NCBI GenBank assembly: GCA_963737905.1
Contig: CAVTUQ010000019.1
Span: 160,001 to 224,000, forward strand
DNA from: an uncultured delta proteobacterium
Lineage (GTDB): Bacteria; Desulfobacterota; Binatia; UBA9968
Length of the DNA stretch: 64,000 nucleotides
Reading direction: 5' to 3'
Part shown: in pieces, positions 1,125-40,422 of the stretch
How positions within the stretch are numbered: the first letter of the stretch is position 1
How the letters are laid out: each line of letters begins with the position of its first letter
The notes under the pieces: model-generated
Told to the model about the DNA's origin: nothing
The model's database searches: none
Seen by the model: only the letters and a program-made list of their open reading frames with translations
Translations under genes and position numbers: made by a program

Positions 1125-3035
1125 TTATCCTTGGTTCTTAAAGAAACAAACCGACAGCGGCGGCAATGTAATCGTGAGGGAACAGGAACGACCATGGAGC
1201 GGTACAGGAACCGTCTCTACGCCGCCGAGATTTCCCATGTTGCTGCCACCGTATTCGCTTGCGTCGCTGTTCAGGATCTCCTGCCAGAACCCACTGCGCG
1301 GGGAGCCGAGCCGGTAGCTGTAACGCGGTACGGGCGTAAAGTTGCAGACCACCAGAATAATGGCGGAGGTCGATTTGCCTTTGCGGATCAGGCTAACCGT
1401 ACTGGCATCCTTATCGTCGCAGTCGATCCATTCGAAGCCTGCCGGCTCGCAATCCATTTCGTGTAACGCCGGTTCGCTGCGATAGAGTCGATTTAGATCT
1501 TGCACCCATTTTTGCAGTCCGGCGTGGGGCGCATCGTTCAAAAGATACCAGTCCAAGCTCGAATCGTGAACCCATTCGCGCCACTGCCCGAACTCGCCTC
1601 CCATGAAAAGCATTTTTTTACCGGGTTGCGCGTACATGTAGCCAAACAATGCTCGCAGATTGGCAAACTTCTGCCAATCGTCACCTGGCATTTTCCTTAT
1701 CAGAGAGCCTTTACCGTAAACAACCTCGTCGTGGGAAAGCGGCAGAACGAAGTTTTCGTGAAACGCATAAAGCATACGAAACGTCAGCTTGTCGTGGTGG
1801 TAGCGCCGAAAGACCGGATCTTTGCTCATGTATTGGAGCGTGTCATGCATCCAGCCCATGTCCCATTTGAAACCGAAACCCAGGCCGCCTACGTAGTTAG
1901 GCCTTGACACCATCGGCCACGAGGTGGATTCCTCAGCGATGGTTTGAGCATCCGGATGGTTTTTATACACCTCTTCGTTCAACCGTCGCAGGAAATTAAT
2001 TGCTTCGATGTTTTCCCGCCCGCCATATTGGTTTGGAATCCACTCACCCTCTTTGCGGGCATAGTCCAGATAAAGCATTGAGGCAACCGCGTCGACGCGG
2101 AACCCGTCTACATGGTAACAGTCGAGCCAGAAGAGCGCGTTGCTGATGAGAAAACTTTGAACCTCCTTACGGCCGTAATTGAAGATGTAACTCTTCCATT
2201 CGGGATGATAGCCCTGGCGCGGATCGGCATGTTCGTAAAGATGGGTTCCGTCGAAGAATGCCAAACCGTGCTCATCAGCGGGAAAATGTGACGGCACCCA
2301 GTCGAGGATCACGCCAATGCCGTGTTGATGCAAAGTATCGACGAGATACATAAGATCCTGCGGCGTGCCATAATTTCCGGAGGGAGCGAAATAGCCGGTT
2401 GTCTGATAGCCCCAGGAGCCGAAGAATGGATGATCCATAACAGGTAGAAACTCCACGTGGGTGTATTCCATCCTTTGGAGATATTCCGCCAGCTGCGGCG
2501 CTAACTCGCGATAGGACAACGAGCGATTACCCTCTTCAGCCACACGTCGCCAGGAACCGATATGCATTTCGTAAATCGCCATCGGCTTACCCAGGCCGCT
2601 CCGTTGCCGGCGGCTTGTCATCCAATTCTGATCGCCCCACGGATAATCGAGATTCCACACAATGGACGCCGTCTTTGGCGGTATCTCATTGAAGATCGAA
2701 AACGGGTCCGTTTTGTCTACTCGATAGTCGTTGAAGCGAGAAAGGATGTGATACTTGTAGAGTGTCCCGTTACCGATCCCGGGGAAAAACCCTTCCCAGA
2801 TACCCGACTGGCCCTTGGGGTGGAGAGGATCGCTGCTCTTATTCCAGCCGTTGAAATCACCCATGACAAATACCTGCGCGGCATTGGGCGCCCAGACGGC
2901 GAATTGGGTGCCGCTGGCGCCTTGGTGGTTGACGACGTGCGCGCCGAGTTTGTCGTGGAGTCGAAAATGGCTGCCCTCGTTAAACAAGTAGAGATCCTGA
3001 TCGGTCAGGAGACTGACGATTTCATGGCTCCCCAT
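1125..3035 (-). CDS. glgB: 1,4-alpha-glucan branching enzyme
   Basis: FAVWAPNA, WGYQ, DWVPSHF, DGFRVDAVASM, AEEST and LSHDEVV GH13 motifs. Confidence 0.97.
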   Translation of the reverse strand: MGSHEIVSLLTDQDLYLFNEGSHFRLHDKLGAHVVNHQGASGTQFAVWAPNAAQVFVMGDFNGWNKSSDPLHPKGQSGIWEGFFPGIGNGTLYKYHILSRFNDYRVDKTDPFSIFNEIPPKTASIVWNLDYPWGDQNWMTSRRQRSGLGKPMAIYEMHIGSWRRVAEEGNRSLSYRELAPQLAEYLQRMEYTHVEFLPVMDHPFFGSWGYQTTGYFAPSGNYGTPQDLMYLVDTLHQHGIGVILDWVPSHFPADEHGLAFFDGTHLYEHADPRQGYHPEWKSYIFNYGRKEVQSFLISNALFWLDCYHVDGFRVDAVASMLYLDYARKEGEWIPNQYGGRENIEAINFLRRLNEEVYKNHPDAQTIAEESTSWPMVSRPNYVGGLGFGFKWDMGWMHDTLQYMSKDPVFRRYHHDKLTFRMLYAFHENFVLPLSHDEVVYGKGSLIRKMPGDDWQKFANLRALFGYMYAQPGKKMLFMGGEFGQWREWVHDSSLDWYLLNDAPHAGLQKWVQDLNRLYRSEPALHEMDCEPAGFEWIDCDDKDASTVSLIRKGKSTSAIILVVCNFTPVPRYSYRLGSPRSGFWQEILNSDASEYGGSNMGNLGGVETVPVPLHGRSCSLTITLPPLSVCFFKNQG

Positions 3036-3297
3036 AGATCTAAATTACCTTCTTTCTTTAGTTTTCCAGGTATGGCGGAGCGACTTTTGGATATCCGCCG
3101 CAAAAGTTTGTGATAAATTCTTAAAACGAAAATGCCGCGTTGCGATTGCTGCTTAATCCGAGCTCTACAAAAATTCTGACATGTGGAGGCGAGTTTGTCT
3201 ATCGGGGGACTCTCGGCAGAGAACCCAAATTCTTGGCCGGAAGCGATCCGGTTTTTAAGATAATAACGTTCTTCCGGTGAACATTTGTGACGAGCCC

Positions 3298-4981
3298 TCA
3301 GTGTTGATCGGGGTCTCTGTTATCGGCATCCTCTTGCTCGGAAGGCAAATAAATGTTGAAGAGGGTCCCTTTGCCCGGCTCACTTTCGACTTCGATCCGT
3401 CCGTTGTGATTCTTAACGATCCTTTGACAGATGGGAAGACCGAGGCCCATACCGCGTCTTTTCTTTGCCGTAAAAAAGGGCTGAAAGATTTTCGGCAGGT
3501 CTGTCTTTTCGATGCCAAACCCCGTATCCGCCACCGTTATCACCGCTATGGGCCCCCTGCTATCAGATCGCGTTGTTTTTGCTTCCACTACGAGCTTGCC
3601 GCCTTCCGGCATTGCGTCGATGGCGTTCAGGTAGAGGTTGACCAAAACCTGCTCCAGCTGCTGGGAATCGGCTTGAATTCGAGGCAGATCCGGATCCAGT
3701 CTTTTTTCCACGGTGATTTTCTGTTTGTAGAGACGGTTTTCCACCAACTGAAGGGTTTTCTCAATTGCATCTGTTATCGAGGTCGAGCAAAACTCTGTAC
3801 TTCTGGGGCGGGCGTATTCCATAAGGTCTTTTACGATCTGCCTGCACCGCTTCGATTCCTCGTCGATGATTTGCAAAGCGCGATAGTTGGGATCGGCGGG
3901 GTTTATGCCGCTCAACATGTCTTCCACGAACCCCATGATGATTCCGAGGGGATTATTGAACTCGTGGGCCATGGAAGCCGTCACCTCGCCGAGGGAAACC
4001 AATCGCCCCGACATGATCAGTTGTTGCTCCAGTTCCTGAGCCTGCTGGCGCAGCTTCTGTTCACTCTGGCGCAATGCATCCTCTATCTGCTTGCGCCGGC
4101 TGATATCCCGGGCGATCTTGGACGCGCCGACGATATTCCCTTTGGCGTCTCGAATGGGCGACACGGTGAGAGAGATATCAAACCGACGGCCGTCCTTACG
4201 CCGGCGAATCGTCTCATAGTGTTCGATGCGCTCGCCCCGCCTAATGCGCTCAAGAATTCCTGGCTCTTCATCGTGGCGCTCCGGAGGAATTAAAAGGGTG
4301 ATGGGCTTTCCAATCACCTCTTCAGCCACGTACCCAAAGAGCCGCTCCGCGGCTTGGTTCCAACTGGTAATGATTCCGTTGAGGTCTTTGCTAATGATCG
4401 CGTCTTCTGAAGACTCGACGATGGCGGCCAGCCGCCGGCTGGCTTGTTCCGCCTGCCTTAGATCCGTGATGTCTGCAAAGATGTTGATCGCGCCCACAAT
4501 TTCGCCGGCGGCGTTGGTGATCGGGTCGATGTTGACCAGCGCGGTAATACGGGAGCCGTCCGGGCGCTCGATAACGACCTCTTGATTTCGAATAGGAGCA
4601 GCTCCGCTTAGGACTTGAGCCATCGGAGTTTCTGCGTGGGGCAGGCGCTTCCCATCAGTCCGAAAAAGCCGAAAGGCGCCACAGAAACGCTCATCGTGTT
4701 TCCCCGATGACAGGCGCACGTCCCCAAAGCTCCGAGGCTCGGCGGTTGTAATAGTTGATGATTCCGGAAGGGGTCTCGCAGATATATACTCCCGCCGGAA
4801 GCAATTCCATAAGACGGAGCGCGAGAGATGAGTTGGGTGACTCAAACAGACGACAAAACTCGGACGCAAAGACGCCGCTCTGTTGGTCAACGGTCTGCTC
4901 ATGGTTTTCTCGAACCATGGTAGAGTGCTGCGCCCGCAAGCGGTCCATGGTGGGTCGATTTGGCGGCGGCTTATCACTCAT
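3298..4981 (-). CDS. PAS-PAS sensor histidine kinase with an apparent 1-nt frameshift near 4697
   Basis: H-box AHEFNNPL, N-box NLYLNAIDA, DTGFG and GMGLGL. The first PAS domain starts in ORF 4691..4981 (LLPAGVYICE..YNRRASELWGRAP) and continues in the other frame (DERFCGAFRL). Confidence 0.85.
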
Positions 4982-32297: not shown

Positions 32298-32861
32298 ATG
32301 ACGAGACGTGCCCTGTTGCAGAGTGTGTTTGCATCCGCGATTTGGACCTTATTCAAGGATCTCGCTTTTGCGGCCCAGCCGCCATCAATGAAGGACATCG
32401 AGAATTTGCAGAAAAACTGGAAGGCGCTATTGGCTGACGGGACCAAGTTGCCGTCGCCTTCCGATCCGCTCAAGCTGTCGAAAGAAGAATGGCGCAAGCG
32501 TCTGAACCCAACGCAATTCAATATCCTGCGCGAGGAAGGTACCGAGCCCCCCGGCACGAGCCCTCTGAACAACGAAAAGCGGCCCGGCGTATTCGTTTGC
32601 GTCGGCTGCAACCTGGCCCTTTTTACCTCCGATATGAAATACGAGAGCGGCACCGGCTGGCCGAGCTTCTTCACCACGATTCCGGGCGCCTTCGCCAACA
32701 AAACGGATTACAAACTGATTCTGCCGCGGAGCGAATACCACTGCATCCGTTGCGGCGGCCACCACGGCCATGTCTTCGACGACGGCCCGCCGCCGACGGG
32801 GAAGCGCTGGTGCAACAACGGCGTGGCTTTAAAATTTATCCCCAAAAGCGGCAGCGCATAA
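32298..32861 (+). CDS. msrB: Peptide-methionine (R)-S-oxide reductase with a Tat signal
   Basis: MTRRALL signal, GTE, SGTGWPSF, HGHVFDDGP..RWCNNG. Confidence 0.95.
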   Translation: MTRRALLQSVFASAIWTLFKDLAFAAQPPSMKDIENLQKNWKALLADGTKLPSPSDPLKLSKEEWRKRLNPTQFNILREEGTEPPGTSPLNNEKRPGVFVCVGCNLALFTSDMKYESGTGWPSFFTTIPGAFANKTDYKLILPRSEYHCIRCGGHHGHVFDDGPPPTGKRWCNNGVALKFIPKSGSA

Positions 32862-32910
32862 CCAGTAAGGATTGAGACGACTTCCGAGTCGTTTCAATCC
32901 GATGTTCAAG
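32856..32910 (+). other. Degenerate attC-like site (attC0)
   Basis: GCATAAC (contains the msrB stop) + hairpin GGATTGAGACGACT/AGTCGTTTCAATCC + GTTCAAG. Left arm resembles attC1 and attC2, but the spacers are off the canonical register. Confidence 0.55.
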
Positions 32911-33197
32911 AAGCCCGTGGTTGAGGCAGGCGGGATCAATATAAGGGAAATGGTTGTGGTGGGCGGTTTGCGCCGAAGGAAGAGAAGGTTAAATTACACG
33001 GTGGACTTCGGCTCGCGGTAGAAATGGGCGCGGTAGAGTTTGCTCGGGTTTAGTTTTTTCTCCTTGAATTCCCACAACAAGAGAGACTCGGAACGATACC
33101 ATCGGTAACGTGAGCGCACTTCGGCGCCTGCGCTCTGATTTCAAAGCAATACAGCAGAGACAAACCGCGAGACGATTATCAGGTTGAGCGAACTTTT

Positions 33198-34289
33198 TTA
33201 TCCCGAGCGGCGCAGAATTTTGAACGGCGGCAGCACCGAGCGTAGCTTCAGCAACCCGCCACAACTTGGGCAGGCAGTGCGTTTTGGAGGGTCGATCTCG
33301 GGGACCGGCAAATCGACAGCGAAACCGTAACTTAATTCGATCAGGCCACGAATCCGATCGAGCGGGATCTTGCAGTTGGGATTCATAAAGCCGTAGTAGC
33401 GGATTTTCATGAAGCCAGTGGGCAGCACATGCTGCAAGAAGCGGCGGATGAACTCCATAACATCAAGAGCCAAGATTCTGGAGCGCTGGCTGTGAGGCTT
33501 GCGATAGCGAATCAGCACGGTGCGGTCCTGGACGCCAAGGATGCGCGAGTTGGAGATGGCGACTTTGAAGACGTAGGGAGCGAGGTATTTGAGGCAGGCC
33601 TCACTGGAGGAGACCGCTTGGCAGTTGACGTTCCAGGCGATTTGCCAGACATCGTTGGGAATTTGATCGAACAATTTTGCTTGTTTCATCAGATCGCGGA
33701 ACTTGGCCCTAAAGATGATCGAGAGCGCTTTGACCGGCAGAAAGAAATCGATTCGGGAAGGATGCCAAGAGCCATCCAATGAACGCATAGCGCCACCCGA
33801 AACGATGTAGTGGATGTGGGGATGGTACTGAAGAGTTCGTCCCCAGGTGTGCAGCACACCGAAGAAGCCTGGGAGATCGGCACCGATGTGTTTGGGATCA
33901 GTGGCGAGCTTTTTGATCGCCGCAGAAGAGGACTTGAACAGAGCCGAGTAACCGAGGCGCTGGTGTTGGCGGATGAAGGAACGCAATTTTTCTGGAACGG
34001 TAAACGTGATCAGGAAGTGATGGCCTGGGAGTTGGCGCTGGATCTGGGTTTGGAGCCACTGTTGGGATTTGTTGTACTGGCAGGTGGGACAGTGGCGATT
34101 GCCACAGGAAACGAAGAACTGTTGCGGCTCAGCACAGCCCTCGCACTGATAGAAAGCGATCCCGCAAGCCTCGGTGCGACAAGCGATGATGGCATCGATG
34201 ACTTTACGATGGCTGCTGGGCATGGTCGTAGCATAGCGTTGGAGATACTCGGGGCCGAAGGTGGAAAAGATTTCACGAATGGAGGTCAT
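33198..34289 (-). CDS. IS91-family rolling-circle (HUH, Y2) transposase
   Basis: Zn-binding CEGC..SCGNRHCPTC, HTWG..HPHIH (HUH), YLAPY (Y2), FLQHVLPTGFMKIRYYG. Confidence 0.95.
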   Translation of the reverse strand: MTSIREIFSTFGPEYLQRYATTMPSSHRKVIDAIIACRTEACGIAFYQCEGCAEPQQFFVSCGNRHCPTCQYNKSQQWLQTQIQRQLPGHHFLITFTVPEKLRSFIRQHQRLGYSALFKSSSAAIKKLATDPKHIGADLPGFFGVLHTWGRTLQYHPHIHYIVSGGAMRSLDGSWHPSRIDFFLPVKALSIIFRAKFRDLMKQAKLFDQIPNDVWQIAWNVNCQAVSSSEACLKYLAPYVFKVAISNSRILGVQDRTVLIRYRKPHSQRSRILALDVMEFIRRFLQHVLPTGFMKIRYYGFMNPNCKIPLDRIRGLIELSYGFAVDLPVPEIDPPKRTACPSCGGLLKLRSVLPPFKILRRSG

Positions 34290-35160
34290 GATCGAGTCCC
34301 TCCATCACGTGATTGATCAACTGACAGGCATCTTCCTGACCCTTCTGGGTCAGGTGGAGATAGAGCATGGTGGTTTCGAGACGGGAGTGGCCCAGGTAGC
34401 GTTGGATGACGCGCAGGTTGACGCCGGCTTCGAGGAGATGGGTGGCGTAGGAGTGGCGCAGGGTGTGGACCGCAACGCCCTTTTTGTTCACGCCGGCGTC
34501 CCGCTTGGCTTGGCGAAAGGCGCTCTGGAGGGTGCTCTTGGCCATGGGTTGGGTAGCCTGATGGGCATCGGTTTTTTTGTGGCCGCGAGCGGGGAAAACA
34601 AGCCGAGGATGGCGATGAGTGAGCCAGTATTGGCGCAGCAGATGGAGTGTGGGCTGGGGCAGAGCGACGTAGCGGTCCTTGGCGCCCTTGCCGCGGTGGA
34701 CATGGATCATCATGCGCTTACTGTCGATATCGGAGACTTCGAGGTGGCGGGCTTCGTCAAGGCGCAGGCCGCAGGAGTAGACGGTGGAGAGAAAGACGTG
34801 GTGGGGAGAGTTTTTAACCTGGGCCAGAAGGCTTCGGACTTCTTCGACGCTTAAGACAGCGGGCAGGCGGTGTTCGTTCTGGGCGCGCAGAATCGACAGG
34901 ATGTGCCAGTCGCGCGCTAGCACATGGACGTAGAAAAAACGAATACCGCAGTAGCAGATGCGCATCGTCTTGGGCGCCCAGCGGTTGACGTTTTTGCGAT
35001 GCAGAAAGTATTCTTGGAGCTCGGGTTCGGAGACGAGATCGGGCGTTTTCTCGTAAAACTCAGAGAGCATCCGTACCGCGCGGGTATAGGCTTTCTGGGT
35101 GGGTTCTCCTTTCCCATTGAGTTGCAGGATGGCGATCATCCGTGGATACCAATCGTTCAT
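34273..35160 (-). CDS. Tyrosine recombinase associated with the IS91-like transposase
   Basis: GLRLDE, GKGAKDR, HTLRHSYATH, LGH, TTMLY: the R-K-H-R-H-Y catalytic set is complete. Confidence 0.95.
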   Translation of the reverse strand: MNDWYPRMIAILQLNGKGEPTQKAYTRAVRMLSEFYEKTPDLVSEPELQEYFLHRKNVNRWAPKTMRICYCGIRFFYVHVLARDWHILSILRAQNEHRLPAVLSVEEVRSLLAQVKNSPHHVFLSTVYSCGLRLDEARHLEVSDIDSKRMMIHVHRGKGAKDRYVALPQPTLHLLRQYWLTHRHPRLVFPARGHKKTDAHQATQPMAKSTLQSAFRQAKRDAGVNKKGVAVHTLRHSYATHLLEAGVNLRVIQRYLGHSRLETTMLYLHLTQKGQEDACQLINHVMEGLDHDLHS

Positions 35161-35261
35161 AAAGTTCTCCTTCCGAAATAAGATAGGAGAGCTTATCGAA
35201 CAACGATGGTGGTGGGACAGGAACGAATGTCAGGGCGAATTAACTGCCGCGGAGCGGCTTA

Positions 35262-35321
35262 CTTGAACCATTGGGTTGAGACGGTCGCGGCAGACCGCGC
35301 CTCTCACCCACAACGTTAGAC
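35262..35321 (+). other. Integron attC site (attC1, 60 bp)
   Basis: R'' CTTGAAC, 5 nt, L'' GGTTGAGA, central stem CGCGG/CCGCG, L' TCTCACC, 6 nt, R' GTTAGAC; one extrahelical base in L''. Confidence 0.85.
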
Positions 35322-35344
35322 AGCCGAAAGTCAGGAGAGCGCCG

Positions 35345-36208
35345 ATGATGGATCCGATCAGACGCAAAATCCTTCAAACAGGCGGCGCGGCAACGGTGAT
35401 AATCGCAGCGCGGCGAGTGTTTGGTCAGCAAACTGCACAAGGAGGAGCTGCAATGTCGTTCTACAAAAAAGGCCCCGTTTGCATTCAATATGAGGAGGCC
35501 GGTTCTGGCTTCCCGTTGTTGCTCGTTCCTGGCGGGGGATTGAACTCGACGATCGCCGGCTTGAAACGCGGCGGGCCTTTCAATGCGATCGAAGAGTTCA
35601 AGGGAGAATACAGCTGCATCTTCTCGGACATGCGCAACGCCAATGGCGGTCAGTCCTACGGCCCACTTGAGATCGATCGGCCGTGGGATGCCTATACCGA
35701 TGACCATATCGGTGTGATGGATCATTTAGGAATAGACAAGTTCATGGTCATGGGCTTCTGTATCGGCGGTCCGTTGATTTGGAACCTTCTGAAGCGGGCA
35801 CCCGATCGCATCGTCGCAGCCGTGCTGGCACAGCCCAGCGGATTCCGCCCGGAGCTGCCCAACCACTCGTACGACAACAACATCAAGGGTTGGGGCCCCG
35901 AGCTGGTCAAGCGCCGGCCCGACATCACGATGGAGATGGTCGACAAATTTCTAACCAAGATGTACCGCACCAACCCCGACTTCGTCTGGACTGTGACACG
36001 CGATTTCGTGCGCAATTGCCGGACGCCGGTGCTGATCCTGCCGGATGATACCCCGCCGCATCCGTACGTCGTCGCCATGGAGGCCGCCATGCTTGCGCCG
36101 AAGGCAGAAGTGAGCATGTTCCCGTGGAAGGAGCCGAAGGAACGGATTCCCCTGGCGGTGCGCCAGATACGTTCCTTCCTCCGGGCGCACCGGCTCGCTT
36201 CTGTTTAG
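35345..36208 (+). CDS. Alpha/beta hydrolase with a Tat-like signal (cassette gene)
   Basis: IRRKILQ signal, LLVPGGG, GFCIGG nucleophile elbow; lies between attC1 and attC2. Confidence 0.85.
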   Translation: MMDPIRRKILQTGGAATVIIAARRVFGQQTAQGGAAMSFYKKGPVCIQYEEAGSGFPLLLVPGGGLNSTIAGLKRGGPFNAIEEFKGEYSCIFSDMRNANGGQSYGPLEIDRPWDAYTDDHIGVMDHLGIDKFMVMGFCIGGPLIWNLLKRAPDRIVAAVLAQPSGFRPELPNHSYDNNIKGWGPELVKRRPDITMEMVDKFLTKMYRTNPDFVWTVTRDFVRNCRTPVLILPDDTPPHPYVVAMEAAMLAPKAEVSMFPWKEPKERIPLAVRQIRSFLRAHRLASV

Positions 36209-36271: not shown

Positions 36272-36331
36272 GTCTAACCATTGGGTTGAGAATGACGCGG
36301 CAGAGCGCCCCTCTCATCCATGGCGTCAGAC
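36272..36331 (+). other. Integron attC site (attC2, 60 bp)
   Basis: GTCTAAC-CATTG-GGTTGAGA...TCTCATC-CATGGC-GTCAGAC; close relative of attC1; R' has GTC in place of GTT. Confidence 0.8.
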
Positions 36332-36364: not shown

Positions 36365-36832
36365 ATGGAACCCAACTGCACACCGATGCTGATAAGTACC
36401 AGGCCGGAATGGGAGGCGCGTCACAAAAAAGCGAGGACCTGTTGCAACTTGTGTATGGGATAACAGTGGAGGCTTGGAGTTAGCGGAAAGATTCTGGGAC
36501 GCGGCTATTGCGGTTGATCCAGAAGCTAAACGAACTGGGGATAGCGTTATGGATCACCAAGTGCGCTTTCAGATTTGTGGACCGCCACTGGTTTTGCGAA
36601 TGTTGAAACAAAGGCCCTGATTATTCCTATGGAGTTTACTTCCTTCGAGGATTTGTGGCGCATTGAGTCGAATGCCCAGGGACCGCCTAAACTTTATATC
36701 AGTACTCTCTCTGAGCATCGCCAACAGGCATTGAAGGAGCGACTACGCACGGATATTCTTGGTAATCGCCCTGATGGATCGATTATGCTTAGTGCCAAGG
36801 CTTGGGCAGTGCGCGGGGTGGTACCGGCATAG
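36365..36832 (+). pseudogene. Degraded class I SAM methyltransferase cassette gene
   Basis: GGAGG RBS and ATG, then fragments DADKY..MG, WDAAIAVDP and F.SFEDLW..AWAVRG spread over different frames; the SAM-binding core is missing. Confidence 0.6.
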
Positions 36833-36868
36833 AATTTTTCCGCGGACTGGTTTTTCGCAAAACGGAGC

Positions 36869-36925
36869 GTCTAACTTGGCCTCAGACCGATCGCTTACAG
36901 CGCCGGCTGAGCGTGAACGTTGGCC
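36869..36925 (+). other. Integron attC site (attC3, 57 bp)
   Basis: GTCTAAC ... CTCAG(A)CCG..CGCT/AGCG.CGGCTGAG ... GTTGGCC. Confidence 0.78.
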
Positions 36926-36947
36926 TTCAAATTACCGAAGTTTGCTT

Positions 36948-37664
36948 ATGAAAATATTTCTGTCGCATCGCAGCCGAGATAAGGCGTTGGTCCGTGAGTT
37001 TAGGGACCTACTGCCAAGGTTCTTAGACGCTTGGCTCGACGAGGAAAGGCTTTCGTGGGGCGATTCCTTCCCAGGAGAGCTGAAGTCGAGCATTCAGTCG
37101 GGGGTCGATTTCTTAATCATATTCCTGGACAGGGAGGCGCTTAGTTCGGCATGGGTGAAACAGGAACTCCAATGGGCAATCGAACGCGAAAAGGAATTGA
37201 AGAGGACGTTTATCCTGCCCATCCTGCTCGAAGAAGTTTCTCCTGAAAATCTGCCCACTGAGTTTTCCACGCGATTATACCTTCGACTGGACGATTTCAG
37301 CCGTGCGTCGGTTGAGGCATTGGCGACCAGAGCGACACTACAACTGTTTCGTTTGGTTGTCGAAAGTTTCTCAGCTGTCCAGCTCGAAATACCGCGTCGC
37401 GAATCGCTCAACGCAATCCGTGACGGGCTTAGTGCAGGGCAGGCTCGTCTGCTAGGGTATATAGTCCGACAATGCAGTGATGGCTCAGAGCTGACGCAAC
37501 GCGAGATCGAGACTGCAATGGGACACGCCCATGGCTCAGCAGAACTCTTTTACCGACTGGAATCGCTGATCGCACAAGGTTTCCTATTGAAGCGGCGCAT
37601 AGCGGCAGATGGACAGTTTTCATATCGACTAAGCAAGGACTTTGGGGAGTTACGAGAAGGCTAA
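36948..37664 (+). CDS. TIR-domain protein with a C-terminal winged-helix-like region (cassette gene)
   Basis: MKIFLSHRSRDK, WLDE, SAWVKQELQWA, ILPILL; stop codon inside the R'' box of attC4. Confidence 0.85.
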   Translation: MKIFLSHRSRDKALVREFRDLLPRFLDAWLDEERLSWGDSFPGELKSSIQSGVDFLIIFLDREALSSAWVKQELQWAIEREKELKRTFILPILLEEVSPENLPTEFSTRLYLRLDDFSRASVEALATRATLQLFRLVVESFSAVQLEIPRRESLNAIRDGLSAGQARLLGYIVRQCSDGSELTQREIETAMGHAHGSAELFYRLESLIAQGFLLKRRIAADGQFSYRLSKDFGELREG

Positions 37665-37746
37665 CCAAGCGTTGGACCGAACGGTGAATAGCGGCGATCG
37701 TGATGGCAGCGATTTTTCGCGCCGCCGGTCAACTCGGCTGTTAAGC
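37659..37746 (+). other. Integron attC site (attC4, 88 bp)
   Basis: GGCTAAC-CAAGC-GTTGGACCG ... CGGTCAAC-TCGGCT-GTTAAGC. Confidence 0.85.
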
Positions 37747-37806
37747 TGCCTGCACTATGCCACCTTGACACTTGTCAATTTCGTTCAGATACGCCAGATA
37801 TGATCC

Positions 37807-38648
37807 ATGACAACCATCAACCAAAATCGCACGCGAATGAACGACGCTCTTGATCCCTCATCTATCCTCCAAACCGCTTTCGGTTTTTGGCATTCCAAAG
37901 TCCTGCTCACGGCCGTCGAGTTCGGTGTGTTCACGAAACTCGCCGGTCGCCGTCTCACCGGCGCCACCCAGCGGCGCATCGGACGATTCGAGTTGGCGAA
38001 CGGCGGTACGATCTTTCTCGACGAGGTTACCGAGTTGCCCATCGATACGCAGGTCAAGCTGTGCGCGTGCTGCAAGAAGGAGAGTTCGAACGAGTCGGAA
38101 GCAGCAGACGATCAAAGTCGATGTGCGCGCCATCGCCGCCACCAATCGAGCTCAATGAGGTTGTGAAGAACGGAACCTTTCGGTCGGATCTTTTTTACCG
38201 GCTCAACGTGTTTCCTCTGAGGGTGTCGGCGCTGCGCGAACGGAAAGATGATATTTCGCTCCTGGTCAATTTCTTTCTGAGCAAATTTGGCAAGAAATTG
38301 GGTAAAGAGGTGCGGGGTGTCTCTCAGAGATCGATGGATAGTTTGGTCAACTACGACTGGCCGGGAAACGTGCGTGAATTACAAAACATCATTGAGCGCG
38401 CGGTGGTGCTCGCCGCGGGTCCGATCGTCCAGATCGACGACTCGATGATGCGCTCCGGTGAAGCGGCGCAGGAGTCGGCCCTCGATACGCTTGAGAATGC
38501 TGAACGCAATCACGTCCTGCGGGCGTTGTACGAAACCCATTGGATTGTTCACGGCAAGAAGGGCGCGGCGGAGATCCTTGGGATCAACCCCAGTACCTTG
38601 CGATCGCGGATGGAGAAGCTTGGAATAAGGCGGCCAGCGCAATCGTAA
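37807..38648 (+). pseudogene. Chimeric pseudogene: O-methyltransferase N-terminus joined to the frameshifted C-terminal half of a sigma54 activator
   Basis: [20 protein letters not shown] switches at LTGA to [17 protein letters not shown]. Several frameshifts follow, then FRSDLFYRLNVFP, WPGNVREL and a Fis-type HTH. Confidence 0.8.
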
Positions 38649-38649
38649 A

Positions 38650-38761
38650 AGTTCCAGTCGTTTCAATTGTTCCAGAAGTTCCAGCGGTTGAGGTCAACGG
38701 TCCGTTGGACGGTTCAACGACGACGACTTGAACGAATGGAACAACTGGAGCTTTTGGAACC
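38650..38761. repeat. Palindromic array of ~9-nt units (GTTCCAnnn ... nnnTGGAAC)
   Basis: GTTCCAGTC GTTTCAATT GTTCCAGAA GTTCCAGCG ... TTGAAC GAATGGAAC AACTGGAGC TTTTGGAAC. Confidence 0.7.
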
Positions 38762-39359
38762 TCGGCCATCGCGGCGCCCATATGATGACCAACCGGTACC
38801 CGAGCAGCAGCGCCAATATCGCACCGTATTGAAACGGCCGGCGAATATCGGCTTTCACCAACCAGTAGAAATGAATGACGCCGGCGATTGCCGCGATATA
38901 AACCAAGCGGTGCAACCGCTGCCAGCGCTTGCCCAGCCTGCGAATCATAGCTGCCGTCGAGGTGATCGCCAGCGGGATCATAAGCACGAAGCCGGTAAAT
39001 CCCGCGGTCACATAGGGGCGCTTGATGATGTCTTTGACGATCGCTTGAAAATCAAAGAAATGATCGAGCACCAGGTAAGTCGAGAAGTGCAGGCCCGCGT
39101 AGAAGAAGGCGAACAGTCCTAGCATCCGCCGGAACTTGATTATCTCGTTCCATCCAAAGATTTTGCGTAGCGGTGTCACGCTGAGTGTTGCCAGCAAGAA
39201 GATCAAAGTCCAATCGCCGGTAAAGTGCGTGATAAACTCGATCGGGTTTGCTGTCAGATCACCAGCCCATGCGTTGTACAGTAGCTGCCCCAACGGGATG
39301 AGACAGGCGATAAAGACAGCGAGTTTTAAGCGGGACAACATAGTCGGCATATAGCTCAT
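38694..39359 (-). CDS. msrQ: Methionine sulfoxide reductase heme-binding membrane subunit
   Basis: RRMLGLFAFFYAGLH, KRPY, LAITS, WQRLHRLVY. Confidence 0.93.
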   Translation of the reverse strand: MSYMPTMLSRLKLAVFIACLIPLGQLLYNAWAGDLTANPIEFITHFTGDWTLIFLLATLSVTPLRKIFGWNEIIKFRRMLGLFAFFYAGLHFSTYLVLDHFFDFQAIVKDIIKRPYVTAGFTGFVLMIPLAITSTAAMIRRLGKRWQRLHRLVYIAAIAGVIHFYWLVKADIRRPFQYGAILALLLGYRLVIIWAPRWPRFQKLQLFHSFKSSSLNRPTDR

Positions 39360-39452
39360 GGTTTATAGCATATGGCGCGGCCTATGACTTATCGCAGCGT
39401 CTGCTCTCGATTGGTGCATAGCCGAGCCATACGCTATAGGCCATACGCCATT
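39346..39452. repeat. TATGGC/GCCATA heptamer-periodic palindromic repeat (copy 1)
   Basis: CCATACGCTATAGGCCATACGCCAT, shared with the copies at 44.5, 45.6 and 61.7 kb. Confidence 0.7.
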
Positions 39453-39459
39453 TACTCTC

Positions 39460-40422
39460 CTAATAATACTTCTTCAAATCCATCCCACGGTAAAGGTCCG
39501 CGACCTGTTCACCGTAGCCGTTGAACATCAAGGTCTTTCGCCTGAGGAATTCACCGATGCGCCGTTCCGTCGCCTGGCTCCAGCGCGGGTGGTCGACTTC
39601 GGGGTTTACGTTGGAATAAAAGCCGTATTCCTGCGGCTGCATCAGGTTCCAGGCGGTGGGTGGTTGTTTTTCGACGAAGCGGATCTTGACGATGGATTTG
39701 ATGCTCTTGAAGCCGTATTTCCACGGCACGACAAGCCGGATTGGCGCTCCGTTTTGCGAGGGTAGTGTTTCCCCATACAGGCCCACAGACAGTATCGTCA
39801 ACGGGTGCATCGCTTCGTCCATCCGCAGTCCTTCGACATAGGGCCATTCCAGCACGGGGAATTTTTGCCCGGGCATGCGCTTTGGATCTTGTAGTGTGAC
39901 AAACTGGATGTACTTTGCTTTGCCGGTGGGCTCCGCGAGCTTGACGAGCGAATTCAAAGGAAAGCCGACCCAGGGAATCACCATCGACCAGGCCTCGACG
40001 CAACGCAAGCGATAGATTCTTTCTTCCAGCGGGGCGATCTTTATGAGCGTGTCAATGTCGTAGGTTTTTGGTTTATTAATTTCACCCTCGACGGCGATCG
40101 TCCAGGGACGGGTCGTGAGATATTTGGCGTTTTCTGCCGGATCGCCTTTGTCGGTACCGAGTTCATAGAAGTTGTTGTAGGTTGTGATGTCTTTAAGTGA
40201 ATTCAATTTTTCGCTGGTACTGAACGAGCTTTTGCGAAGGTCGCTCAATTTTTCTCCCGCGATGACTTGACGAGGCGAGAGAGACGCACCGAACCCGCTG
40301 AGGACTGCGCCGGCGGATAGCGCCGTGGCGGACGCAGCGAGAATAAACTGACGCCGGTTCAAGTAAAGATCTTTGGGGGTGATCTCAGATGACTTTATGT
40401 CGTTCGATTTCGTGATCAGCAT
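39460..40422 (-). CDS. msrP: Molybdopterin methionine sulfoxide reductase catalytic subunit
   Basis: SEITP..NRRQF Tat signal, [31 protein letters not shown]. Confidence 0.96.

What the first reader, a model, noticed from the sequence alone, without database searches (positions are those of the whole stretch)
32904..35321. IS91-like transposase + tyrosine recombinase module packaged as an integron cassette
Seen: the module starts at G|TTCAAG, the crossover position of the upstream attC-like site. It ends in CTTGAAC, which serves as the R'' box of a well-formed attC. These two 7-mers are exact reverse complements, extending to GTTCAAG-AAGCC/GGCTT-A-CTTGAAC, and the neighbouring cassettes follow the same start/R'' rule. 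The genes point opposite to the other cassette genes, as intI normally does. Known: IS91 transposases use CTTG/GTTC tetranucleotides and single-stranded circular intermediates; attC recombines as a folded single strand; some IS91 members carry a tyrosine recombinase of unclear role. CTTGAAC contains both CTTG and GAAC. Inference: this may be a self-mobilising cassette in which the HUH enzyme makes a single-stranded circle and the recombinase integrates it at attC sites. It might also move neighbouring cassettes in an array that lacks intI.
Basis: partly seen in the sequence, partly recalled or inferred. Interest (0 to 1): 0.85.

Follow-up and report, generated by a model that had tools for sequence, protein, structure and literature searches.

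The report
IS91-recombinase insertion sequence targeting attC
This is a 2.4-kb mobile insertion sequence carrying an IS91-type transposase and a recombinase related to integron integrases; it has landed, in inverted orientation, in the recombination site (attC) of a small integron-like gene-cassette array, and its relatives in many other bacteria favour the same kind of site.

Summary
The mobile unit is window 32862-35267 (2,406 bp). Nine near-identical copies in another genome, partial copies in this genome and metagenome contigs all carry that hairpin into different flanks.

It belongs to the IS91-family subgroup that carries a tyrosine recombinase. Its two ends are complementary: TTCAAGTAAGCC at one end, GGGCTTCTTGAAC plus hairpin at the other. 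Joined in a circle they would form an attC-like fold. The heptamer pair co-varies in a distant subfamily.

Across 51 unique insertions the junction is G|TTA. Of these, 19 abut an AAC...GTT hairpin, against 3-4% of control sites. 33 carry an attC L-box signature, against 8.7% of controls. Polarity places the junction in the R'' box, with the element antiparallel to the cassettes, as in the window.

The recombinase groups as sister to integron integrases but lacks their 21-residue insertion.

So this is not a cassette as delimited. It is an attC-targeting insertion sequence, and its insertion creates a cassette-like look. Which enzyme performs integration is not shown. I found no description of this targeting in the literature searched, apart from one passing remark.

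The parts
32298..32861 (+). msrB (SelR domain), the left flank. Its TAA stop (32859-32861) lies at the junction. It is a conserved chromosomal gene, not preceded by an attC.
   Evidence: Pfam SelR 1.8e-41. DNA matches in 61 of 90 family genomes at 74-81% identity, with the stop at the same codon position in the 9 relatives inspected. No GTTATGC on the + strand nearer than 25820.
32862..35267 (-). Complete IS91-family element of the recombinase-bearing subgroup, 2,406 bp. Each end is ambiguous by up to 3 nt because the element and the target share GTT/AAC.
   Evidence: Ends placed by homology to multi-copy relatives. Contig break points at 32859 and 35270.
32862..32916 (-). oriIS-type end. On the element strand it reads: box GGGCTTCTTGAAC (32904-32916), 3-nt spacer, hairpin (32869-32900), spacer TTACTG, then G.
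   Evidence: Alignment A2 of 34 ends: 12 pairs, 90.4% of cells paired, 5 pairs with changes on both sides, 0 of 500 shuffles reach the covariation score, slid controls 25-51% paired.
33198..34289 (-). IS91-family HUH/Y2 transposase, 363 aa. HPHIH and YLAPY motifs were read in the translation.
   Evidence: NF033538 361.6 bits. Y2_Tnp 7.9e-55, Zn_Tnp_IS91 1.6e-26.
34273..35160 (-). Tyrosine recombinase, 295 aa. Catalytic residues R133 K158 H232 R235 H258 Y267 are present. It lacks the IntI-specific 21-aa insertion.
35244..35267 (-). terIS-type end: TTCAAGTAAGCC followed by the small palindrome GCCGC-TCC-GCGGC.
   Evidence: Motif found in 65 of 80 sequences searched. Layout matches the terIS described for IS801/IS1294 (passages read).
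35262..35321 (+). Invaded attC (attC1). Its R'' position is now occupied by the element's CTTGAA plus the target's C. R' is GTTAGAC at 35315-35321.
   Evidence: nhmmer and covariance-model hits, 76.2 bits, + strand only. In run X9, nine contigs share it only from 35266 onward.
36272..36331 (+). attC2. It closes the alpha/beta-hydrolase cassette (ORF 35276-36208).
   Evidence: 71.8 bits. Abhydrolase_1 3.1e-09.
36869..36925 (+). Candidate attC3 (GTCTAAC ... GTTGGCC). Read by eye; not scored by the narrow model.
   Evidence: Not detected.
37659..37746 (+). Candidate attC4 (GGCTAAC ... GTTAAGC), just after the TIR-domain ORF (36759-37664).
   Evidence: Heuristic hairpin of -15.6 kcal/mol found on the - strand. 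TIR_2 8.2e-17.

Best explanation
Window 32862-35267 is an intact 2,406-bp insertion sequence of the IS91 family. It belongs to the subgroup that carries a tyrosine recombinase gene just upstream of, and overlapping, the HUH/Y2 transposase gene.

Shown:
- The element moves as a discrete unit with fixed ends. One end is a terIS-like end, TTCAAGTAAGCC plus a small palindrome. The other is an oriIS-like end, made of the box GGGCTTCTTGAAC, a conserved hairpin and TTAnnGG.
- It lies between a G and TTA of the target.
- In the window the target is the R'' box (GCATAA|C) of the first attC of an array without intI. This R'' box overlaps the msrB stop codon, and the element is antiparallel to the cassettes.
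- Family-wide, the target resembles the L''-spacer-R'' half of an attC read on its bottom strand: GCTkNAAC-N5-G|TTAkGC.

Inferred mechanism:
- The HUH transposase produces a single-stranded circle, as described for IS91. The two ends then fold into an attC-like structure: a 12-bp R-type stem, an asymmetric internal loop and the hairpin.
- This junction recombines at G|TT (AA|C on the other strand) with the top strand of an attC. According to published integron work, that is the reaction that gives an inverted insert.
- The recombinase is sister to IntI but lacks the insertion that reads extrahelical bases. I propose that it recognises both sites and either catalyses the exchange or guides it.

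My odds:
- Discrete insertion sequence with these ends: 0.9.
- Real preference for attC: 0.8.
- Recombinase responsible for target choice or strand exchange: about 0.55.
For: Identity of the genes.

Ends:
- 9 full copies at 97-100% identity in one MAG, each with different flanks.
- Three copies in this genome share sequence from TAACCA onward.
- X1 and X4 contigs break at 32859, and an X1 contig breaks at 35270, with 0 mismatches to the window at the two X1 ends.
- The recombinase lies directly upstream of the transposase in 77 of 79 loci.

Structure of the ends:
- The hairpin shows compensatory changes.
- Subfamily A pairs GTTCAAG with CTTGAAC. Subfamily B (35-40% identity) pairs GTTGRAC with GTCCAAC.

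Targets, 51 unique insertions:
- GTT in 44. Next bases: A in 41, G/T in 45, G/A in 40, C/T in 34.
- An anchored AAC...GTT hairpin of -10 kcal/mol or better in 19 of 51. Controls: 44 of 1063 GTT sites in the same loci and 17 of 600 GTTA sites in this genome.
- T at -12 together with A at -9 in 33 of 51, against 8.7% of 1125 control GTTA sites.

Polarity:
- More unpaired bases in the 3' arm on the element strand in 13 of the 19 hairpin targets, in the 5' arm in 3, equal in 3.
- A reverse-strand ORF stop lies within 40 nt of the oriIS junction in 21 of 42 insertions.
- All 3 copies in this genome are antiparallel to their arrays.

Published rules (passages read): extrahelical bases lie near L''; AAC lies in R'' on the top strand; top-strand recombination inverts the insert.

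Recombinase:
- The IS-borne recombinases form a clade (support 0.81) that is sister to 24 IntI (support 1.0), with XerC/D outside.
- The IntI 21-aa block has 0 occupancy in them, and the RKHRHY residues are kept.

IS91 layout, and the statement that only single-stranded circles insert: passages read.
Against: - 32 of 51 insertions fail my hairpin test, and 18 of 51 lack the L-box signature. attC is therefore preferred, not required.
- A G|TTA site beside oriIS fits the ordinary IS91 rule of a flanking target tetranucleotide. The transposase alone could therefore explain insertion.
- attC-likeness was judged with my own heuristic, which gives about 0.1 false hits per kb, and with a narrow model built from this genome. 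It was not judged with the IntegronFinder model.
- The narrow model gives the element's own hairpin site only 8.2 bits, E 4.9.
- The tree holds only IntI, XerC, XerD and the IS-borne recombinases. The sister relation is relative to that sample, and 0.81 is moderate support.
- Within subfamily A the box tolerates single mismatches without compensation.
- No circle junction and no empty site was seen. Only contigs were available.
- msrB is not a cassette gene, so how an attC came to abut it is unexplained.
Confidence: 0.6

Rival explanations
1. Ordinary IS91-type transposition carried out by the transposase alone. The transposase recognises a flanking tetranucleotide (here GTTA rather than GTTC/CTTG) in single-stranded DNA. 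attC sites are hit often only because their R boxes contain GTTA(G/T)GC and because they fold when single-stranded. The complementary heptamers would then be guide and cleavage-site sequences for the transposase. The recombinase would be an accessory, for example resolving multimers or converting intermediates.
For: - The end layout matches the published terIS (GTTC plus palindrome) and oriIS (palindrome plus flanking tetranucleotide).
- 32 of 51 targets have no detectable AAC...GTT hairpin.
- Tandem duplications of the oriIS module (L051, L053, L055, L087) and a GGGTTAT x4 run (L059) look like slips in rolling-circle termination.
Against: - The target consensus extends at least 14 nt upstream of GTT. 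The L-box signature is present in 33 of 51 insertions against 8.7% of control GTTA sites.
- Even among non-hairpin targets, 16 of 32 carry that signature.
- Polarity relative to attC is strict.
- The recombinase is conserved in 77 of 79 loci with an intact catalytic set, and it is IntI-like.
Confidence: 0.3
2. The segment from G|TTCAAG (32904) to the attC at 35262-35321 is a true integron cassette. It is excised and inserted by an integron integrase (or by its own recombinase) together with that attC.
For: - The start TTCAAG is complementary to R'' CTTGAA, as in real cassettes.
- The genome encodes an IntI.
- After the insertion, an IntI could in principle use the two attC-like sites.
Against: - In every comparison the hairpin upstream of 32904 moves with the genes, while the downstream attC does not.
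- X1 shows the identical terIS end joined to a different attC-like flank.
- The left-end motif is joined to unrelated flanks in 51 unique contexts.
Confidence: 0.05
3. One-ended transposition brought the array here. The element sat in the R'' box of attC1 in a donor array. Replication ran past terIS and carried attC1 plus the following cassettes. The whole segment then inserted beside the msrB stop codon.
For: - msrB is conserved in 61 of 90 family genomes with the same stop position. It has no attC or cassette start upstream, yet an attC abuts it once the element is removed.
- The array is short and ends at chimeric ORFs near 37800-38000.
- One-ended transposition is frequent in IS91 (passages read).
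Against: - No distal junction was identified.
- No related genome has an empty msrB locus for comparison. The two same-genus genomes had no msrB match, and the 9 relatives share no synteny.
Confidence: 0.12

Closest known systems
IS91 / IS801 / IS1294 (IS91 family, HUH Y2 rolling-circle insertion sequences)
   Same: - Transposase family.
- Two unlike ends: a terIS beginning GTTC with one subterminal palindrome, and an oriIS with a palindrome.
- A specific short target next to oriIS.
- No target duplication.
   Different: - Carries a tyrosine recombinase.
- The flanking target is GTTA within a roughly 20-nt attC-like consensus, not only CTTG/GTTC.
- The ends are complementary over 12 nt and co-vary between subfamilies.
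IS91-family members with an upstream tyrosine recombinase (for example ISShvi3)
   Same: Same gene pair. [quoted passage not shown]
   Different: - I found no description of systematic attC targeting, polarity, attC-like ends or an IntI-sister recombinase.
- That ISShvi3 carries a recombinase, and that ISfinder lists such a subgroup with its role unknown, are recalled and come from no call.
IS1111-attC elements (IS110 family) and group IIC-attC introns
   Same: Mobile elements that home to attC sites in a fixed orientation. The attC homing comes from titles and abstracts listed; the fixed orientation is recalled.
   Different: Unrelated enzymes: a DEDD transposase with a guide RNA, and a retro-element ribozyme. 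Here the enzymes are an HUH transposase plus a tyrosine recombinase, and the insertion point lies in the R'' triplet.
Integron gene cassette and IntI
   Same: - GTT at both junctions.
- A folded site reconstituted on circularisation, with an R stem, an internal loop and a hairpin.
- The recombinase is sister to IntI in my sample.
   Different: - The recombinase falls below the IntI cut-off and lacks the 21-aa insertion.
- The junction lies in R'' (top-strand AAC), not R'.
- The element is inverted relative to the array.
- It carries two genes and a transposase.

Membership tests
IS91 family insertion sequence | HUH/Y2 transposase with an N-terminal zinc-binding domain | tested here: met
   NF033538 361.6 bits against a cut-off of 125. 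Y2_Tnp and Zn_Tnp_IS91. HPHIH and YLAPY read in the translation.
IS91 family insertion sequence | Unlike ends: terIS (GTTC-type terminus plus one palindrome) upstream and oriIS (palindrome) downstream of tnpA | tested here: met
   The published layout comes from passages read.
IS91 family insertion sequence | Specific tetranucleotide flanking oriIS, and no target duplication | tested here: met
   GTTA in 37 of 51 and GTT in 44 of 51 insertions. No duplicated flank was seen. The tetranucleotide differs from CTTG/GTTC.
IS91 family insertion sequence | Rolling-circle or single-stranded circle transposition | not testable with these tools
   Only contigs were available. No circle junction was seen.
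Integron gene cassette | The unit that moves is bounded by the G|TT crossovers of two attC sites and carries its own attC at its 3' end | tested here: not met
The real unit does carry an attC-like site 3' of its genes, but that site is split over its two ends.
Integron gene cassette | Its recombination site is recognised by an attC covariance model | tested here: inconclusive
   Only a narrow model from 11 attC sites of this genome was available. The element's own site scores 8.2 bits, E 4.9. The IntegronFinder model was not on hand.
Integron integrase (IntI) | Scores over the TIGR02249 cut-off | tested here: not met
   168.8 bits against a cut-off of 265. The match is in two stretches that skip model positions 177-231.
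Integron integrase (IntI) | IntI-specific insertion in the catalytic domain | tested here: not met
   The 21-column IntI block has 0 occupancy in 17 subfamily-A and 8 subfamily-B recombinases.
Tyrosine recombinase superfamily | Catalytic R-K-H-R-H-Y residues | tested here: met
   R133 K158 H232 R235 H258 Y267 align with near-invariant columns.
XerC / XerD | Scores over the TIGR02224 / TIGR02225 cut-offs | tested here: not met
   137.4 against 335.15 and 145.3 against 329.6. It lies outside the Xer clades in the tree.

The most novel reading that the evidence does not exclude
These elements are a 'mirror-image integron'. A sister lineage of IntI, lacking the insertion that enforces bottom-strand choice, recombines an attC-like site carried on the element's circle with the top strand of attC sites. 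The element sits inside R'' and IS91-type elements often run past terIS. It can therefore carry the rest of an attC (L'' to R') to a new G|TTA, which is often the TAA|C stop of an ordinary gene. Later precise loss of the element would fuse that gene to a complete attC and so create a new cassette. The window's arrangement msrB-TAA | element | C-attC1 would be a snapshot of this process.
Probability: 0.12. Interest if true: 0.9.

Novelty: new variant of a known kind. Interest (0 to 1): 0.68.

Why it matters
Two kinds of element were already known to home to attC sites: IS1111-attC elements and group IIC-attC introns. This would be a third kind, and a mechanistically different one. It combines a single-strand HUH transposase with a recombinase that groups next to integron integrases.

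It offers three things:
- A natural comparison for how IntI acquired its strand selectivity, since this relative lacks the extra domain and gives the opposite polarity.
- A possible explanation for the unexplained recombinase in some IS91 members.
- A testable route by which attC sites could be moved next to ordinary genes. That bears on the open question of how cassettes arise and how arrays without intI are seeded.

Practically, annotators should expect such elements to split one attC into two attC-like sites, producing a false 'cassette' that contains a transposase.

Tried and rejected
- **Covariance model R1** (11 attC sites of this genome). It is too narrow: it added only 5 weak hits genome-wide. 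I did not use it on foreign loci.
- **Heuristic attC scanner**. It missed attC2, whose R' is GTCAGAC, and gave hits inside coding regions. I used it only with controls.
- **Density of attC-like sites in the 3-kb flanks of 29 insertions**. 0.23 per kb on the terIS side, 0.19 per kb on the oriIS side, 0.10 per kb background. Inconclusive; it does not show whether targets lie in arrays or at array edges.
- **Search for an empty msrB locus.** The two same-genus genomes gave no match. Nine relatives share only msrB with the window.
- **Reads**. All 4 runs laid were Logan contigs. No contig joined across 32862-35267 and no circle junction was seen. This says nothing either way.
- **Plasmid collection**. 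Only relatives below 41% identity (309 records), so no well-annotated resistance integron could serve as an orientation standard.
- **The idea that the hairpin is msrB's own attC.** Rejected.
- **The idea that the left-flank consensus is part of the element.** Rejected because nine near-identical copies have different flanks.
- **Supplementary files** of papers were not consulted. Those of the Shewanella paper (Figure S2) may show the ISShvi3 context.
- **Unpublished genomes.** The msrB tally of 61 of 90 includes matches in G066, G083, G012 and G006.
Full report
**What is at the coordinates**

The - strand carries two overlapping genes.
- A 295-aa tyrosine recombinase at 34273-35160, with Pfam Phage_integrase 2.5e-35 and Phage_int_SAM_4 9.6e-19.
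- A 363-aa IS91-family transposase at 33198-34289, with Y2_Tnp 7.9e-55, Zn_Tnp_IS91 1.6e-26, and NCBIfam NF033538 at 361.6 bits against a cut-off of 125.

GTTCAAG (32904-32910) and CTTGAAC (35262-35268) are exact reverse complements, and the complementarity extends to AAGCC/GGCTT with one extra A.

CTTGAAC sits where the R'' box of an attC should be. The site at 35262-35321 belongs to a sequence family with 11 members in this genome. Their consensus reads xCTAAC-cattGGGTTGAGA...CTCTCACCC-acaac-GTTAGAC. A model built from these members scores the site at 76.2 bits on the + strand only.

A second member lies at 36272-36331 (71.8 bits). Two further candidates, at 36869-36925 and 37659-37746, were seen only by eye or by my heuristic.

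The ORFs between these sites are on the + strand: an alpha/beta hydrolase and a TIR-domain protein. The contig has no integron integrase. The genome's one intI over cut-off is on another contig, C7:226498-227442, at 456 bits.

**Where the mobile unit really ends**

Three lines of evidence move the left boundary from 32904 to about 32862.

1. This genome holds two partial copies, at C25:349339 and C7:230931. Their similarity to the window begins at TAACCA(G/A)TAAGGATTGAG, which is window 32859. The sequence upstream is unrelated in all three.
2. The search for related loci returned 79 loci with transposases 52-90% identical to the window's, out of 171 confirmed relatives. One Desulfobacterium MAG holds 9 full copies at 97-100% identity, plus 2 disrupted copies. 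They start at GTTCAAGTAAGCC and end after a hairpin at ...CCTAAAGGTTA. The nine left flanks and nine right flanks are all different.
3. Contigs of public runs carry the window's ends with other neighbours. Similarity starts at 32859 in X1 (0 mismatches) and in X4. In X1 it stops at 35270 (0 mismatches), followed by a different attC-like sequence.

The element is therefore window 32862-35267, 2,406 bp. Each end has a 1-3-nt ambiguity because the element and the target share GTT.

**Anatomy of the family**

- The recombinase gene lies directly upstream of the transposase gene in 77 of 79 loci. One exception keeps a recombinase remnant, and the other starts at a contig end.
- The upstream end is nearly invariant: (G)TTCAAGTAAGCCGCTnCGCGGCAG. 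The 14-mer was found with 2 or fewer mismatches in 65 of 80 sequences.
- The downstream end reads GGGCTTCTTGAAC, 3 nt, a hairpin, then TTAnnGG.
- In an alignment of 34 distinct downstream ends, the hairpin's 12 pairs are 90.4% paired and 5 pairs show changes on both sides. None of 500 shuffles reached the covariation score, and slid controls are 25-51% paired.
- This layout matches the terIS and oriIS described for IS801 and IS1294 in a 2025 preprint. I read passages of that preprint, not the whole text.

The terminal heptamer and the subterminal box are complementary. In subfamily A both are conserved, so they cannot co-vary there, and single mismatches occur in a few members.

A second subfamily is informative. 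Its proteins are 35-40% identical to the window's. It includes three more copies in this genome (C25, C1, C22) and copies in related genomes. It has GTTGRACTAAACCGC at the upstream end and GCGGTTTAGTCCAAC before its own, different hairpin. The pairing is thus kept through several simultaneous changes.

If the two ends are joined in a circle, they give a 12-bp stem with one bulge, an asymmetric internal loop (3 nt against 6) and the hairpin. That is the general architecture of a folded attC.

**Where the family inserts**

I placed both ends in 51 insertions with distinct flanks and rebuilt the presumed empty sites in scripts.

The junction heptamer:
- It starts GTT in 44 of 51 insertions.
- The next bases are A in 41, G or T in 45, G or A in 40, and C or T in 34.
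- The three bases after the last G vary among otherwise near-identical copies (TTG, ATA). I therefore take them as coming from the target.

Hairpin test:
- An AAC...GTT hairpin of -10 kcal/mol or better, closed on the junction GTT, is present in 19 of 51 insertions.
- The same test passes at 44 of 1063 random GTT sites in the flanks of the same loci, and at 17 of 600 random GTTA sites in this genome.
- At -15 kcal/mol the counts are 10 of 51, 22 of 1063 and 5 of 600.

Upstream consensus:
- The left flank reads G-C-T-k-n-A-A-C-G-n-n-T-T/G-G.
- T at -12 together with A at -9 occurs in 33 of 51 insertions: 17 of 19 hairpin targets and 16 of 32 others. Among 1125 control GTTA sites it occurs in 8.7%.
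- The target therefore looks like the L-box, spacer and R-box half of an attC. It is preferred, not obligatory.

**Polarity**

- On the element's coding strand, the target hairpin has more unpaired bases in its 3' arm in 13 of 19 cases, in the 5' arm in 3, and equal numbers in 3.
- Passages of Nivina et al. 2016 state three rules. Extrahelical bases lie near L''. On the bottom strand they are on the arm opposite the AAC. On the top strand the AAC lies in R'', and top-strand recombination inverts the insert.
- By these rules the element's coding strand is continuous with the attC bottom strand. The junction lies in R'' (AA|C on the top strand), and the element is inverted relative to the cassettes.

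Three further observations are consistent with this.
- A reverse-strand ORF of 70 aa or more ends within 40 nt of the oriIS junction in 21 of 42 insertions that have at least 400 nt of flank.
- All three copies in this genome are antiparallel to their arrays.
- In the window, the msrB stop TAA plus the following C forms the split R'' box.

**The recombinase**

It scores below every curated cut-off:
- XerA-type model: 172.2 bits against 220.
- IntI model: 168.8 against 265. The match comes in two stretches that skip model positions 177-231.
- XerD: 145.3 against 329.6.
- XerC: 137.4 against 335.15.

I built a FastTree tree (LG+gamma, 79 sequences, 299 columns, midpoint root). It contained 17 subfamily-A and 8 subfamily-B recombinases, one related protein, 24 IntI from this phylum, and 14 XerD plus 15 XerC.
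- The IS-borne proteins form one clade (support 0.81).
- That clade is sister to the IntI clade (support 1.0).
- XerC and XerD lie outside.
- Only these groups were sampled, so the sister relation holds within this sample only.

The 21-column block specific to IntI is empty in all IS-borne proteins. The catalytic residues R133, K158, H232, R235, H258 and Y267 are present. That this IntI block is the part that contacts extrahelical bases is recalled, not taken from a call.

**How it most likely works**

Shown: the ends, the unit of movement, the target consensus, the polarity, and the relationship of the recombinase.

Inferred: the transposase makes a single-stranded circle. The IS91 preprint's passages say that only single-stranded circles insert. 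The joined ends fold like an attC, and exchange occurs at GTT/AAC with the top strand of an attC.

I give about 0.55 to the recombinase choosing the target or catalysing the exchange. The reasons are the roughly 20-nt bipartite target, the strict polarity, the conservation of the gene and its kinship with IntI.

I give about 0.3 to the transposase doing everything, with GTTA serving as its flanking tetranucleotide. No evidence in hand decides between the two.

Insertion into R'' splits one attC into two attC-like sites on the array's top strand.
- The element's hairpin site now carries the target's xxTAAC on one side and GTTCAAG on the other.
- The old attC now has the element's CTTGAAC as its R''.

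The stretch between them starts TTCAAG and "ends" in a site whose R'' is complementary to that start. This is a consequence of the element's own terminal complementarity.

**An open point**

msrB is not a cassette gene.
- It matches 61 of 90 genomes of the family at 74-81% DNA identity. This tally includes four unpublished genomes: G066, G083, G012 and G006.
- Its stop codon is at the same position in the 9 relatives inspected.
- No attC or matching cassette start lies upstream.

Yet removing the element leaves an attC abutting its stop codon. One-ended transposition carrying the attC remainder and the following cassettes would explain this, but I could not test it.

**Prior knowledge**

Eight full-text searches found no description of attC targeting by IS91-type elements. 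[quoted passage not shown] The IntegronFinder paper and Escudero et al. 2016 were checked by term search only. ISfinder and TnPedia could not be consulted.

**Verdict**

The object is an attC-targeting variant of a known insertion-sequence family with an IntI-like recombinase. It is of real interest to specialists in integrons and transposition. The mechanism is still inferred.

Noticed in passing
window 35539-35602: A 64-nt palindrome, ATTGAAC...GTTCAAG, lies inside the hydrolase ORF. It folds at -17 to -18 kcal/mol on both strands and carries the same heptamers as the element's ends.
   Followed up: no
window 37807-38648: Just past the last candidate attC the ORFs look chimeric. A methyltransferase-like N-terminus runs into a fragment of a sigma-54 activator AAA+ domain. 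This suggests a rearrangement at the array's far edge. msrQ/msrP-like genes follow at 38694-40422 (named by eye from the translations, no family search).
   Followed up: no
window 36759-37664: A TIR-domain protein (TIR_2, 8.2e-17) is encoded as a cassette in the array that lacks intI.
   Followed up: no
L051, L053, L055, L087; L059: Four elements carry a tandem duplication of the whole oriIS module, with the junction GGTT|GAAC. One element (L059) has GGGTTAT repeated four times at the junction.
   Followed up: partly
L153 (G158:C34), locus 1522-3943: A recombinase-transposase pair of this kind (43% and 38% identity) starts about 400 nt downstream of an integron integrase gene.
   Followed up: no
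L079 and L093 (same contig, about 6 kb apart); L044: Two related but non-identical elements have identical flanks over the 60 nt (left) and 30 nt (right) shown. The left flank also resembles that of L044, which comes from another MAG. This suggests a widespread attC type that is hit repeatedly.
   Followed up: no
G000 C26:159115-159405: A fragment of an integron integrase (136.6 bits, one in-frame TAG) lies near attC-family hits at C26:156834.
   Followed up: no
window 32918-33356, run X4: One contig skips 437 nt of the non-coding stretch between the oriIS end and the 3' end of the transposase gene. This looks like a deletion variant of the element.
   Followed up: no
G000 C7:226498-229613: The genome's intact intI is on the same strand as the attC-family hit 2 kb downstream of it, rather than divergent from it.
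   Followed up: no
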